A stretch of 64,000 nt of DNA, from the NCBI RefSeq assembly GCF_009914755.1, contig NC_060932.1, one strand, 5' to 3'. Both the position numbers and the translations under genes were made by a program. Positions 19,062 to 27,900 of the stretch are shown here, in pieces. The DNA comes from the human T2T-CHM13v2.0 reference genome, Homo sapiens. The first letter of the stretch is position 1; the number at the start of each line of letters is the position of its first letter. Under the pieces are notes generated by a model. It saw only the letters and a list, made by a program, of their open reading frames with translations, did not search any database and was not told the origin of the DNA.

Positions 19062-20011
19062 ACACTTACTGAACATCTACCACAGACCAAGCACTGTTCC
19101 ACCATCTTGAATCTATTGACTCATTGACTCATCCAACCACCCTACAAGTTATATCAAGTTATATCCTCCCTATTTTCAAGATGATGAAATTAGGAAAAGT
19201 TAAGTAATTTCTCCAACAATGCATATCCTTAGCCTGGATTCTCCAGAGAGCCAAGAGGGAGGAAGGGAGGGTGGGATCCGCCCCAAGCTGGTTATCACTA
19301 AATGCATCTTCTTGACCTGGTCAGACTGTCCGCCTAGAAGCTTCTTAAGGTGTGACTAATGACTGTGAGTCTGGGGCAGGAGGATGCCTGGGTATGAGCG
19401 CTGAGTAGGGTCCCCAGGAAGCCCCAGGGCAGAAGATAAGAGGAGCCCAAGTGAGCCTGAGGCGGGGCACGGCCAGGCTGACTGCTGGAGTCAGTGGGAG
19501 TCTGTGCAGAGCTGGTCGCCACCTCTGAGGCTGGCACAAGAGACAGGCGAACTCGAAAAAGCATGCAGTCGGGCAAAGTCGGGTATGTTACAAGCCTACG
19601 ATGTCATGGGGCTAGTCTTTCTCTCCTTGTGTGAAAGACGTGGTTCCCATTCCTGACCAACCACAGGGAGGCATGCATTGTGAGCTAGTTAGCTCCTGGT
19701 GGGAACAGGCTTACACAAATCCACACATATGTTCTGTTCCAGTCTACGGCCAATGCCTGTCTTGGAGGAAGAAACGACCCAAGTACAGGGAAGCTGCAGC
19801 TTTCTGCTCAGGACTGCCAGCATGTGGAGCTTCCAGGTCTAGGGTGGATGAGACACTTCCCCAGGGAACTCCCTCTGGCTAGATGATTGAAGATGTTAAC
19901 GATGCATATAGTTGCACCCAGCCATGCTCACCAGGGGAGAAAAATGCTGCTGCCCCCACCAAGCAAGGGTCTTTCAAGGAGCTCCTAGTCAGGCTTGTGT
20001 TTTCAAATCTG

Positions 20012-20018
20012 ACACACA

Positions 20019-20054
<36 letters not shown>
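20012..20054. repeat. (CA)n microsatellite
   Basis: Direct reading. Confidence 0.95.
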
Positions 20055-20056
<2 letters not shown>

Positions 20057-20363
20057 GGCCAGGCACAATGGCTTCTGCCTGTAATCCCAGCACTTTGGGG
20101 AGGCTGAGGTAGGTGGATCACTTGAGGTCAGGAGTTCAAGACCAACCTGGCCAACATGGTGAAACCGCATCTCTACTGAAAATACAAAAATTAGCCAGGC
20201 ATGGTGGCAGGCGCCCATAATCCCAGCTACTTAGGAGGCTGAGGCAGGAGAATTACTTGAACCTGGGAGGCAGAGGTTGAACTGAGCCAAGATTGCCCTA
20301 CTGCACTCCAGCCTGGGGGACAGGGCAAGACTCCTTCTCAAAAAAAAAAAAAGAAAAGAAAAA
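20057..20363 (+). mobile_element. AluS
   Basis: Full dimer with A-tail. Confidence 0.95.
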
Positions 20364-20463
20364 GTTTAGTTCTTTGATTATACAAGTAAATACTTCTCCA
20401 TTAAAAGTAATTTATACTGTTGTAGAAAAATTGGAGGTATAAATACACTTAGAAGTTTGAAGA

Positions 20464-20582
20464 GCTCATCTTCCCTGGTCTATGTCCTCTGCTCCTGGAG
20501 ACCCAGCCTCTGTGGCCCTGTGACCTGCAGGTATTGGGAGATCCCCAGCTAGACGTCATGTCCCCTGAGATGCCTAGAAATG
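20464..20582 (+). pseudogene. Retroposed fragment of exon 1 of a ZNF91/ZNF93-family KRAB-ZNF gene
   Basis: TGTCCTCTGCTCCTGGAGACCCAGCCTCTGTGGCCCTGTGACCTGCAGGTATTGGGAGATCCCCAGCTA...GCCTAGAAATG matches the recalled first exon of this family up to the exon-ending ATG. Confidence 0.75.
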
Positions 20583-20632
20583 GTCTCTTCCCAGGGTGAG
20601 AGAGGAATGAAAACTTAAAGGAAAGAAACTCT

Positions 20633-26751
<6,119 letters not shown>

Positions 26752-26930
26752 GATAATATGACAGGCTAGGAAGAAAGGCAGGTGGAAAATTATTGTCTAA
26801 TGAGCACAAAGCTTTTGTTTAGAATCATGAAAAGTTTCTGGAAACAGATAATGGCATGGTTATACAACACTGTGAATGTATTTACTGCCACCGAATTGTA
26901 CAATTAAAATGGTTAAAATAGTTTTTAAAA
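26752..26930 (+). mobile_element. L1MB 3'-end fragment, putative 3' transduction
   Basis: ATGAAAAGTTTCTGGAAACAGAT...GAATTGTACAATTAAAATGGTTAAAAT, then an A-run and the TSD. Confidence 0.7.
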
Positions 26931-27900
26931 AAAAGTTTGAAGAAGAGAACTATTATCACCTAAAATCTCTCTTCTCCCCAAGATAACCACACTAACATTT
27001 TGGTGTATTCCTTTCCAGGCCTTTCTTTGTAGACATATAAATATAAACTGCATTTTTAAATAAAATGGAGTTGATGATACAAGTGTTTTATTACTCTGCT
27101 TTGTTCTCTTAACATTTTATGATAAATATTTTATTGCCATTAAGAATGCTTCCAAAACACATTATTTATAGCTGAACAATATTTTTTGGATATTCGGGCT
27201 GTTTATAATTTTTCACTCTGATATATGGTGCTGGGATGAAGAGCCTTAAACAGAAGTCTTTGATCACATTTCTGATTACTTCCTTTAGAAGACACTTAAA
27301 AGTAGAATTACTGGGACAAATGATATAAATATTTTAATGAAAATTTTTATTGCCAAATAGTTTCCAGAAATTGACCAATTTACAGTTCTATCTGCATCTG
27401 TCAGTGCAGACACATTGCAAAAACAAGTCAGTATTTTAAATGCTTTTCAGAGTAGCAGGAGGAAATGGTATTTCATTTTTTTTGACTCCTATTTCTTTGA
27501 TTAATGGTTCTATTGACCAATTCTTAATTTGTTGACCGTTTGGATTTCTTCTTTTAAGAACTGCTTGTTCATTTTCTTTGATAATTTTTAAGTTGGTATG
27601 TTAGTATTTTTTATTGACTGGATATAATTAGGAGCTGCTTATTTGTCATGCTCATTGCAAATATTTTTGCCTGTTTTCATTTTACTTTTTACAATTTTTT
27701 ACAATTTTTTATTTTTAAAGGCCAGTCAAATTTAGCAGTGGGTGTCATTTTGCTTTTAACTTGTATTATACAGGGATTTTGTAAATATAGCTGGTTTGGG
27801 GACTTTTCTTTGTTTTACATGGTTAAATCTAACAAGAGTTACCTTTGTGATTCCTCCCATGATCTCATGCTTATAAAGTTCTCTCCATCCCAAGATCAGT
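26931..27900 (-). mobile_element. Ancient L1ME 3' region (continues from ~20380-20463)
   Basis: AAGATAACCACACTAACATTTTGGTGTATTCCTTTCCAG and AGTAGAATTACTGGGACAAA motifs. Confidence 0.65.

What the first reader, a model, noticed from the sequence alone, without database searches (positions are those of the whole stretch)
20464..20632. L1 apparently launched from the promoter of a ZNF91/ZNF93-family KRAB-ZNF gene (spliced exon-1 capture)
Seen: the leader matches the recalled first exon of ZNF91-subfamily genes. Similarity ends at GCCTAGAAATG (20582), where that exon splices, followed by 50 bp of unrelated sequence and then the L1 start. Established: ZNF93 represses L1PA6-PA3, ZNF91 represses SVA, and SVA_F1 arose by splice capture of MAST2 exon 1. 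The ~1 kb 5'UTR here keeps the segment near 21400-21535 that younger L1s deleted. Inference: a source L1 in a KZNF intron was transcribed from its own repressor family's promoter, a possible silencing-escape route that may define an unrecognised chimeric L1 lineage.
Basis: partly seen in the sequence, partly recalled or inferred. Interest (0 to 1): 0.9.

Follow-up and report, generated by a model that had tools for sequence, protein, structure and literature searches.

The report
Zinc-finger gene exon fused to L1
An old, dead L1 retrotransposon near SFRP1 carries at its front a spliced piece of a chromosome-19 KRAB zinc-finger gene transcript, a real but single-copy example of a recently described kind of gene-exon/L1 fusion that did not found a new L1 lineage.

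Summary
Window 20464-20582 is a copy of the first exon of a 19p12 KRAB zinc-finger gene. Its best match is CHM13 chr19:22190911-22191031 at 90% (probably ZNF257), and it ends at the exon's ATG|GT donor.

The "unrelated 50 bp" (20583-20633) is not unrelated. It matches chr19:22197100-22197149 at 94%, which lies 6.07 kb downstream in the same gene, on the same strand, directly after a conserved AG acceptor. The leader is therefore spliced KZNF RNA.

After it come a near-complete old L1 (ORFs broken), a roughly 170-190 nt 3' transduction whose only close match is chr20:51297187 (91%), a short A run, and an 11-nt target-site duplication that brackets the whole unit.

No L1 sits at the chr19 or chr20 sites today. 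No other copy in CHM13 shares the leader, the junction or the 3' tag, so there is no chimeric lineage.

I favour read-through from the KZNF promoter into a now-lost intronic L1 (0.55). The main rival is reverse-transcriptase template switching onto KZNF RNA (0.3).

The kind is already published (Cell Genomics 2026: 17 cases, one with ZNF681 exon 1). This locus is not in that list.

Side result: 15 of 33 dispersed copies of this exon type are joined to L1.

The parts
20453..20463 (+). 5' target-site duplication AAGTTTGAAGA. It extends to AGAAGTTTGAAGA from 20451 with one mismatch. The implied cleavage site is CTT/AGAA.
   Evidence: Exact 11-nt repeat of 26933-26943, ending at the first base of the leader.
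20464..20582 (+). Leader A: copy of the first exon of a 19p12 KRAB zinc-finger gene, ending in the start codon ATG. It begins about 30-35 nt downstream of the exon start seen in other retrocopies.
   Evidence: 39 non-self hits, 35 of them in the chr19/chr7 KZNF clusters. (110/122 to chr19:22190911-22191031). (donor ATG|GTGAGA). (the other retrocopies start further upstream).
20583..20633 (+). Leader B: 51 nt from intron 1 of the same gene, 6.07 kb downstream of exon 1. It starts exactly after a conserved AG acceptor, so it is a cryptic or alternative exon. Its last 17 nt (AAAGGAAAGAAACTCTG) follow a TT and could be the target-site duplication of the lost source L1.
   Evidence: 47/50 to chr19:22197100-22197149; acceptor kept in 6 of 7 paralogues. 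(background for TT|AAA 12-19 nt upstream is 1.66%).
20634..26756 (+). Near-full-length old L1 of L1PA type. 5'UTR to 21658; ORF1 remnant from 21659; ORF2 in at least 4 pieces; A-rich own tail at about 26728-26756. It is dead.
   Evidence: 5'UTR 87-90% identical to the 39 best other L1s; homology from query position 4-8. (largest sense-strand open frames 123, 259, 121, 392 and 129 aa)..
21415..21448 (+).
   Evidence: family D1. The equation with the 129-bp ZNF93 region is recalled, not tested. The deletion itself is described in PMC7110667.
26757..26926 (+). 3' transduction: part of the 3' end of an older L1M-like repeat, copied from a locus like chr20:51297187-51297361. It holds AATTAAA about 20 nt before the cleavage point. 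Its left border may lie as early as 26737.
   Evidence: 91% over query 4-178; next best 83%; 40 of 810 candidates scored. (chr20 continues past the cleavage point and has no L1PA upstream)..
26927..26934 (+). Short A run (8 A), the remnant of the poly(A) tail. It overlaps the start of the 3' target-site duplication.
26933..26943 (+). 3' target-site duplication AAGTTTGAAGA.

Best explanation
The stretch 20464-26934 is one retrotransposed copy of a chimeric RNA. From 5' to 3' the RNA held:
- the first exon of a chr19p12 KRAB zinc-finger gene (most likely ZNF257);
- 51 nt that begin at a splice acceptor 6.07 kb further into that gene's first intron;
- a complete L1;
- about 170-190 nt of chr20-derived 3' flank, ending at an AATTAAA signal.

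**Shown**
- The two-piece spliced origin of the leader.
- The L1.
- The foreign 3' tag.
- The target-site duplication around the whole unit.

**Inferred (most likely route)**
1. An L1 that had earlier picked up the chr20 tag inserted in sense orientation 51 nt downstream of that acceptor in the KZNF intron. This allele was never fixed.
2. It was transcribed from the KZNF promoter as part of the pre-mRNA.
3. Exon 1 was spliced to the acceptor just upstream of the L1, and the RNA ended at the transduced poly(A) signal.
4. The L1's own proteins copied this RNA into chr8 by target-primed reverse transcription.

The copy left no descendants and has since decayed.
For: 1. **Spliced leader.** Exon 1 and leader B each independently pick the same gene, strand and order (chr19:22190911-22191031 at 90%; chr19:22197100-22197149 at 94%). 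The donor is ATG|GTGAGA and the acceptor ttctAG|GTCTCC, both exactly at the junction.

2. **One insertion event.** The 11-nt TSD sits at both outer ends, with a CTT/AGAA cleavage site and an A run.

3. **Same architecture as the one proven cis case.** In RAP1GDS1/L1PA2 the exons are spliced to a cryptic acceptor 15 bp upstream of an L1 that is still in the intron (preprint 10.1101/2025.02.02.635956, section read; table row in PMC13174262 supplementary file 4).

4. **No splice donor at the leader B/L1 junction.** chr19 reads CTCG|GATAGC there, so trans-splicing onto the L1 does not explain it. Instead the junction lies 17 nt after ACTT|AAAG, the spacing and motif expected for an L1 endonuclease insertion.

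5. **The second L1PA-type chimera shows the same feature.** At chr6:25.07 Mb (L009) the 78-nt spacer starts at a conserved intron-1 acceptor and ends 15 nt after ATTT|AAAAAG. The background for TT|AAA at 12-19 nt is 1406/84508 = 1.66% per position, which gives 2.8e-4 for 2 of 2. The motif was chosen after looking.

6. **The L1 is complete to within a few bases of its 5' end**.

7. **Too many L1 fusions for a low-abundance mRNA.** Among dispersed copies of this exon type, L1 fusions (15) outnumber plain processed pseudogenes (9). That is hard to get from random sampling of low-abundance KZNF mRNA in trans (inference).
Against: - CHM13 has no L1 and no scar at chr19:22197149/50. None of the 7 paralogous copies of leader B has one either.
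- The 3' tag comes from chr20, where there is also no L1. The cis route therefore needs two source alleles that were both lost.
- The acceptor of leader B is conserved in 6 of 7 paralogues, and ZNF257 is reported to have an alternative non-coding second exon (PMC4591017). Leader B may thus be part of an ordinary mRNA isoform, which would make a template switch onto mature KZNF mRNA easy.
- By reading, other KZNF::L1 chimeras end inside canonical KRAB exons (L082, L091). That fits trans events better.
- The authors of the published catalogue favour trans recombination for 15 of their 17 loci.
- The endonuclease-motif argument is post hoc and rests on two loci. A third apparent case (L095) was dropped because its L1 start is ambiguous.
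Confidence: 0.55

Rival explanations
1. **Trans event.** An L1 RNA from a now-lost chr20 source was being reverse-transcribed at the chr8 target. At the 5' end of the L1 RNA the enzyme jumped onto a spliced KZNF RNA (exon 1 + alternative exon 2), 51 nt into the second exon, and copied it to its 5' end. This is template switching, or another form of RNA recombination. No L1 ever sat in the KZNF gene.
For: - No L1 at the chr19 site or in the paralogues.
- Only one lost source is needed, at chr20.
- Leader B starts at a conserved acceptor, so it may belong to a normal isoform (PMC4591017).
- The published catalogue finds 15 of 17 donor genes without an intronic L1 and argues for trans recombination.
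- Other KZNF::L1 chimeras break inside KRAB exons or inside the L1 (L082, L089, L091, L094, L099).
Against: - The switch point would fall by chance 17 nt after a TT|AAAG site, and likewise in the chr6 chimera (post hoc).
- Classic template-switch chimeras mostly carry 5'-truncated L1s (stated in the preprint), whereas this L1 is complete.
- KZNF mRNAs are scarce, yet L1 fusions outnumber plain retrocopies of this exon 15 to 9. The scarcity is an inference, not measured here.
Confidence: 0.3
2. **Reverse order, with a short lineage.** The L1 first sat in the KZNF intron. The leader-bearing chimera then inserted at chr20 (an allele since lost). There it was transcribed again from or upstream of the leader, read into the chr20 flank, and landed in chr8. 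On this reading the leader survived two rounds of retrotransposition.
For: - It needs the same number of lost intermediates as the best explanation.
- The leader starts about 30-35 nt inside the exon relative to other retrocopies, as a second-round start inside the leader might give.
- First exons can carry promoter activity, as reported for MAST2 in SVA_F1 (PMC6139936).
Against: - No second copy with the leader, the junction or the tag exists in CHM13.
- chr20 shows no L1.
- Nothing shows promoter activity in the leader.
- A shorter leader is equally explained by an alternative start site or slight 5' truncation.
Confidence: 0.1
3. **Not a retrotransposition product.** The leader is ordinary chr8 DNA, a segmental duplicate of a KZNF promoter region, or a chance resemblance, next to which an L1 happened to insert.
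For: None found.
Against: - The leader lacks the 6.07-kb intron that separates its two parts in chr19.
- The TSD lies outside the leader, not at the L1 start.
- The E-values are 5.8e-36 and 8.1e-13.
Confidence: 0.02

Closest known systems
RAP1GDS1/L1PA2 chimeric insertions: promoter co-option by an intronic L1 (Cell Genom 2026, PMC13174262; preprint 10.1101/2025.02.02.635956, sections 24-25 and passages read)
   Same: - Host-gene 5' exon(s) spliced to a cryptic acceptor a few bases upstream of a sense-oriented L1 (15 bp there, 51 nt here).
- The whole RNA was retrotransposed with a TSD and an endonuclease motif.
- The authors also speculate about escape from KZFP and HUSH silencing.
   Different: - There the source L1 is still in the intron and has a crippled 5'UTR, and four copies exist.
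- Here the source is absent from CHM13, the L1 5'UTR is complete, only one copy exists, and the L1 also carries a 3' transduction from another chromosome.
ZNF681 exon 1::L1 insertion at hg38 chr3:94441985-94449213, one of the 17 mRNA/lncRNA::L1 5' chimeras in supplementary file 4 (titled Supplementary Table 5) of PMC13174262 (table read)
   Same: - First exon of a 19p12 ZNF91-type KZNF gene, followed by a short piece of distant intronic sequence, then a full-length L1.
- TSD present.
   Different: - Different donor gene, an older L1 family and a different chromosome.
- The paper's main text does not comment on KZNF genes ('znf' occurs 0 times in the preprint text).
- The window's locus is not in that table ('chr8' occurs 0 times in file 4).
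SVA_F1 (MAST2 exon 1) and chimpanzee pt_SVA_D6 (STK40 exon 1) (PMC6139936, passages read)
   Same: A first exon of a germline-expressed gene is spliced onto a retrotransposon and carried along.
   Different: - Those exons splice to an acceptor inside the SVA and replace its 5' end.
- They act as promoters and founded families of 84-94 copies.
- Here the splice is to host intron sequence, the L1 keeps its own 5'UTR, and there is no family.
U6/L1 and other template-switch chimeric retrogenes (described in the preprint's text; the wider literature is recalled)
   Same: A 5' piece from a cellular RNA and a 3' piece from L1, in the same orientation, inside one TSD.
   Different: In those the L1 part is usually 5'-truncated and the partner is an abundant small RNA. 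Here the L1 is complete and the partner is a spliced, non-canonical KZNF RNA.
L1 3' transduction (established; recalled)
   Same: Read-through past the L1's own weak poly(A) signal to a downstream signal (AATTAAA), which carries flanking DNA along.
   Different: Nothing unusual, except that the tag points to chr20 while the 5' leader points to chr19.

Membership tests
mRNA first-exon::LINE-1 5' chimeric insertion (Cell Genom 2026 class) | One TSD flanks the non-L1 5' piece and the L1 3' end | tested here: met
   11-nt exact repeat at 20453-20463 and 26933-26943.
mRNA first-exon::LINE-1 5' chimeric insertion (Cell Genom 2026 class) | L1 endonuclease-type cleavage site and a poly(A) tail | tested here: met
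   CTT/AGAA at the 5' TSD and an A8 run at 26927-34. TT/AGAA is listed as a cleavage site in the paper's table.
mRNA first-exon::LINE-1 5' chimeric insertion (Cell Genom 2026 class) | [quoted passage not shown] | tested here: met
   chr19:22190911-22191031 plus chr19:22197100-22197149, with the 6.07-kb intron missing.
mRNA first-exon::LINE-1 5' chimeric insertion (Cell Genom 2026 class) | Near-full-length L1 | tested here: met
   Other L1s align from query position 4-8 of the 5'UTR. The element is about 6.1 kb.
Cis promoter co-option by an intronic L1 (RAP1GDS1 type) | Spliced exons followed by the few bases that lie directly upstream of the L1, starting at a cryptic acceptor | tested here: met
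   ttctAG|GTCTCC acceptor in chr19. The 51 nt then run into the L1 with no donor at that point.
Cis promoter co-option by an intronic L1 (RAP1GDS1 type) | The source L1 is present at that spot in the donor gene | tested here: not met
   chr19 continues GATAGCAG... with no L1. 0 of 7 paralogous sites have one. Only CHM13 was tested.
Chimeric retrotransposon lineage (SVA_F1-like) | Several independent copies share the same captured leader | tested here: not met
   Only the window spans the full leader (40 of 90 candidates scored) and the junction (8 of 8 scored). No second L1 carries the 3' tag (40 of 810 scored).
Template-switch chimeric retrogene | 5'-truncated L1 part; partner RNA copied from the switch point to its 5' end; no genomic contiguity of the two parts anywhere | tested here: inconclusive
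   The L1 is not truncated. No contiguous source was found in CHM13. The junction shows at most 1-2 nt of overlap.
First exon of the ZNF91/ZNF93 subfamily | Matches first exons of the 19p12 / 7q11.21 KZNF clusters and ends at the ATG donor | tested here: met
   35 of 39 non-self hits lie in chr19:19.96-24.24 Mb or chr7:65.67-66.21 Mb. The donor follows ATG. That these clusters are the ZNF91 subfamily is recalled. One anchor is ZNF681 exon 1 at hg38 chr19:23758748.
First exon of the ZNF91/ZNF93 subfamily | The donor is ZNF91 or ZNF93 itself | tested here: inconclusive
   The best hit is a different locus (chr19:22.19 Mb). I assign it to ZNF257 from a coordinate offset of about 140 kb (ZNF681 anchor), from recalled hg19/hg38 positions, and from the gene structure in PMC4591017. 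No CHM13 gene table for chr19 was available.
L1PA6 | Diagnostic subfamily positions | not testable with these tools
   No repeat library is available here. The age is only bracketed: 87-90% to other copies and 90-94% between the transduced pieces and their sources.

The most novel reading that the evidence does not exclude
First exons of ZNF91-type KRAB zinc-finger genes are a recurrent and disproportionately frequent 5' partner of L1.

In CHM13, 15 of the 33 dispersed copies of this exon type are joined in sense to L1 sequence. That is 15 of the 29 that are not genuine gene exons, against 9 plain processed pseudogenes. The L1 families involved span from old non-L1PA types to L1PA.

If this excess is real, the germline-expressed KZNF clusters, whose products silence retrotransposons, repeatedly served as launch pads for L1s lodged in their introns. 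The alternative is that their RNAs have a special affinity for L1 particles. Either way this would be a feedback in the KZNF/L1 arms race that has not been described. It would also roughly double the published catalogue of 17 exon::L1 chimeras.
Probability: 0.35. Interest if true: 0.7.

Novelty: new member of a known kind. Interest (0 to 1): 0.45.

Why it matters
- **A clean example.** Both ends of this L1 carry foreign tags that point to two different chromosomes, and the 5' tag has a mapped donor, acceptor and removed intron. That makes it a useful test case for the open question in the 2026 catalogue: do exon::L1 chimeras arise in cis (an intronic L1 read from the host promoter) or in trans?
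- **Promoter acquisition.** It shows how an L1 can be expressed from a host promoter, which bears on how L1 lineages acquire new 5' ends.
- **No sign of escape.** The attractive idea that the element escaped silencing by using its own repressor family's promoter is not borne out. There are no descendants, the donor is not a known L1 binder, and no promoter DNA was carried along.
- **The wider pattern may matter more.** The many KZNF-exon::L1 fusions could say something about where and when L1s were transcribed in the primate germline.

Tried and rejected
- **Chance resemblance or pre-existing DNA.** Rejected on the removed intron, the TSD and the E-values.
- **Trans-splicing directly onto the L1.** Rejected for this locus. 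The exon-1 donor is joined to a host acceptor, not to the L1, and the leader B/L1 junction has no donor in chr19.
- **A third endonuclease-motif case (L095).** I first counted it, which gave 3 of 7. I withdrew it because comparison with the old-L1 start printed in the paper's table shows that its L1 may begin only 4 nt after the TT|AAA. Only 2 of 2 loci with mapped spacers are claimed.
- **Is leader B the published 121-bp alternative exon of ZNF257?** Inconclusive. From the acceptor to the first GT donor in CHM13 is 127 nt, not 121.
- **The repeat finder** did not list the TSD among its 20 largest families. It was found by reading and confirmed by script.
- **Search for a source or sister L1 by 5'UTR similarity.** The 39 best other L1s are all 87-90% identical, and none lies at chr19:22.19 Mb or chr20:51.30 Mb (40 of 7349 candidates scored, so a sister could have been missed).
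- **Literature on KZNF-exon::L1 chimeras.** One search returned 0 papers. One search returned 2 papers, neither on this by title or abstract. led to the one relevant paper. Parts 2-3 of that paper's supplementary file 4 were not read line by line; they were only searched for 'ZNF', 'chr8' and 'ENST'.
- **Not done:** no protein, structure or RNA-family tools were used. The ORFs are broken and the question is about DNA ancestry.

Full report
**What is there**

The window is CHM13 chr8:41478001-41542000. Reading 19900-21700 and 26100-27300 gives this order:

| Window position | Feature |
|---|---|
| up to ~20350 | Alu with a (CA)n run |
| ~20350-20452 | unique DNA |
| 20453-20463 | AAGTTTGAAGA (5' repeat) |
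| 20464-20633 | the leader |
| ~20634 onward | L1 start (GGCTTCCAAGATGGCC...) |
| ~26728-26756 | the L1's own A-rich end |
| to ~26926 | about 170-190 nt of non-L1PA sequence |
| 26927-26934 | eight A |
| 26933-26943 | AAGTTTGAAGA again (3' repeat) |

A script confirmed the exact 11-nt repeat. An equal or longer match appeared in 13 of 2000 shuffles of the upstream 60-mer and in 9 of 3000 random pairs of 60-mers at the same spacing. The repeat also sits exactly at the two ends of the unit, and the implied cleavage site is CTT/AGAA. The leader, the L1 and the extra 3' stretch therefore arrived as one retrotransposition event.

**The leader is spliced KZNF RNA, in two pieces**

- *Piece A (exon 1).* A search of the whole assembly with 20464-20632 scored 40 of 90 candidates. 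Apart from the window itself, all 39 matches cover only query 2-121. Thirty lie on chr19:19.96-24.24 Mb, five on chr7:65.67-66.21 Mb and four elsewhere. The best is chr19:22190911-22191031(+), 110/122 = 90.2%; the rest are 81-86%. In chr19 the match ends at ...GCCTAGAAATG|GTGAGA, a first-exon donor directly after the start codon.
- *Piece B (intron 1).* A second search with 20578-20650 scored all 8 candidates. It placed the next 50 nt at chr19:22197100-22197149(+), 47/50 = 94%. That is 6.07 kb downstream of the exon-1 match and on the same strand. In chr19 this stretch is preceded by cccattgttttgtgattctAG. The same acceptor is kept in 6 of 7 paralogous copies.

So the "unrelated 50 bp" is the start of a cryptic or alternative exon in intron 1 of the same gene. 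The exon-1 donor is joined to that acceptor with the intron removed.

**Which gene**

No chr19 gene table was available. The published ZNF681 exon 1 (hg38 chr19:23758748-23758852) matches the CHM13 hit at 23899160-23899278, an offset of about 140 kb. With that offset and my recalled position of ZNF257, the donor is most likely ZNF257.

PMC4591017 (passages read) describes ZNF257 as having a first exon whose last three bases are the ATG, an alternative 121-bp non-coding second exon, and both of these upstream of hg19 chr19:22245260. That fits in outline. However, the acceptor-to-first-GT distance in CHM13 is 127 nt, not 121, so I cannot say that leader B is that exon.

**The L1 and its 3' tag**

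- The 5'UTR (20634-21650) is 87-90% identical to the 39 best other L1s, which align from query position 4-8 (40 of 7349 candidates scored). The element is therefore complete to within a few bases.
- The largest sense-strand open frames are 123 aa (ORF1 remnant from 21659) and 259, 121, 392 and 129 aa. It is long dead.
- The stretch after the L1's own tail matches chr20:51297187-51297361 at 91%. All other hits are 83% or less and belong to an old L1M-like 3' end (40 of 810 candidates scored).
- At chr20 the sequence runs on past the point where the window copy is polyadenylated, and no L1PA lies upstream. In the window, AATTAAA lies about 20 nt before the A run.

This is an ordinary 3' transduction, but it points to chr20 while the leader points to chr19.

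The divergence of all three borrowed pieces from their sources (6-10%) and of the L1 from other copies (10-13%) suggests an age of roughly 25-40 million years. This is an inference using recalled rates. The subfamily name (L1PA6 in the finding) could not be tested.

**No lineage**

- Only the window spans the whole leader.
- Only the window spans the leader B/L1 junction.
- The only close relative of the 3' tag is the L1-less chr20 locus.
- The leader starts about 30-35 nt inside the exon as seen in chr19 and in other retrocopies, so no upstream promoter DNA was carried.

**How it arose**

The junction of leader B with the L1 has no donor in chr19 (CTCG|GATAGC), so trans-splicing onto the L1 does not explain it. 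Two routes remain.

*Cis route.* An L1 that already carried the chr20 tag sat in sense orientation 51 nt after the acceptor and was read from the KZNF promoter.
- This is the architecture of the one proven case, RAP1GDS1/L1PA2, where the acceptor lies 15 bp upstream of an L1 still in the intron.
- The junction lies 17 nt after ACTT|AAAG, as expected if those 17 nt were the target-site duplication of the source L1.
- The chr6:25.07 Mb chimera (L009) shows the same feature. Its 78-nt spacer maps to a conserved intron-1 element in 19 cluster sites. It starts at tcctttAG| and ends 15 nt after ATTT|AAAAAG.
- The background for TT|AAA at 12-19 nt is 1.66%, giving 2.8e-4 for two of two. The motif was chosen after seeing the data.

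*Trans route.* The reverse transcriptase switched from the 5' end of the L1 RNA onto a spliced KZNF RNA.
- No L1 is at the chr19 site or at 7 paralogous sites.
- Only one lost source is needed.
- The acceptor is conserved, so leader B may belong to a normal isoform.
- Other KZNF chimeras break inside KRAB exons (L082, L091).
- The catalogue's authors prefer trans for 15 of 17 loci.

I put cis at 0.55, trans at 0.3, a two-round variant (chr19 to chr20 to chr8) at 0.1, and anything else at the remainder.

**Comparison with what is known**

The kind is published. PMC13174262 (Cell Genomics 2026) and its preprint report 17 hg38 L1 insertions with mRNA or lncRNA sequence at the 5' end. I read preprint sections 24 and 25, further passages, and part 1 of supplementary file 4, and I searched all four supplementary files. 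Fifteen of the 17 are in sense, most have near-full-length L1s, and all have TSDs.
- One row is ZNF681 exon 1 plus a short distant intronic piece plus an old L1 at chr3:94.44 Mb.
- The main text of the preprint never mentions ZNF genes.
- The window's locus is not in the table ('chr8' occurs 0 times in file 4).
- The same paper already speculates that use of a host promoter could evade KZFP and HUSH silencing.

The 129-bp ZNF93-site deletion in L1PA3 is described in PMC7110667, and MAST2 exon-1 capture in SVA_F1 in PMC6139936. But PMC7110667 places ZNF93's origin in the ape ancestor, acting against L1PA4. ZNF257 is linked to SVA rather than L1 in PMC8967385. The "own repressor's promoter" twist is therefore not supported.

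**Side result**

A 27-mer of the exon (up to 3 mismatches) hits 75 sites, against 0 for the reversed control. Forty-two lie in the chr19 and chr7 clusters and 33 lie elsewhere. I read all 33.

| Class | Count | Loci |
|---|---|---|
| Exon (with or without a spacer or KRAB exon) followed in sense by L1 | 15 | window, L009, L029, L063, L065, L082, L083, L086, L088, L089, L091, L094, L099, L113 (BLAST support); L095 (by reading only) |
| Plain processed pseudogenes | 9 | L012, L054, L071, L081, L087, L096, L097, L098, L100 |
| Real gene first exons with a GTGAG donor | 4 | L092, L109-L111 |
| Unresolved | 5 | L084/L085 pair, L090, L093, L112 |

For the 14 BLAST-supported loci, the support is similarity to the window's L1 or to each other. 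The spacers differ between loci, so these are independent events. TSDs were not checked for them.

Whether this is a true excess for KZNF genes needs a normalised genome-wide census, which I could not run.

Noticed in passing
L009 (chr6:25072599+), L029 (chr4:155452092-), L063 (chr3:7252087-), L065 (chr4:169301186+), L082 (chrX:91943998+), L083 (chr1:91182288+), L086 (chr11:96621876-), L088 (chr14:39718428+), L089 (chr17:5086877+), L091 (chrX:86150307-), L094 (chr5:162121084-), L095 (chr6:66076394-), L099 (chr18:44388563+), L113 (chrX:149381023-): Fourteen further dispersed loci where a KZNF first exon is followed in sense by L1 sequence of various ages. The spacers differ, so these are independent events. 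In the same 33-site sample only 9 are plain processed pseudogenes. TSDs were not checked.
   Followed up: partly
window 26757-26926; L032 (chr20:51297187-51297361): The L1 carries a 3' transduction whose only close match (91%) is on chr20. No L1PA is present there. The transcript ended at an AATTAAA inside an old L1M-like 3' end.
   Followed up: yes
L044-L050 (leader B element) and L102-L108 (78-nt element), intron 1 of chr19/chr7 KZNF genes: Two short intron-1 elements with canonical acceptors are conserved across many ZNF91-type paralogues: 6 of 7 copies keep the acceptor for leader B, and the 78-nt element occurs at 19 cluster sites. They look like shared alternative 5' exons. Both were used in KZNF::L1 chimeras.
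   Followed up: partly
L089 (chr17:5086877+): A KZNF first exon is joined to only the last ~250 nt of an L1PA (89% to window 26509-26756), with a few unmatched bases and a possible ATG overlap at the junction. This looks more like a template switch than read-through.
   Followed up: no
L063 (chr3:7252087-): The exon-1 + old-L1-start piece sits inside another L1, whose two halves meet at the same ORF2 position (window-equivalent 23490/23491). It is therefore a short chimeric insert nested in an older L1.
   Followed up: no
window 21415-21448: A 17-bp tandem duplication (GCAATATTTRCTGTTCT x2) in the L1 5'UTR. By reading, a similar doubled motif appears in the L1PA5 printed in the paper's table, so it may be a family trait rather than a private change.
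   Followed up: no
L084 and L085 (chr10:80402002+ and chr10:81096506-): Two near-identical inverted copies of a KZNF exon 1 followed by unidentified sequence. They are probably one retro-insertion later caught in a segmental duplication.
   Followed up: no
window 20014-20350: A (CA)n run followed by an Alu with an A-rich tail lies just upstream of the insertion site. It is ordinary and unrelated to the leader.
   Followed up: no
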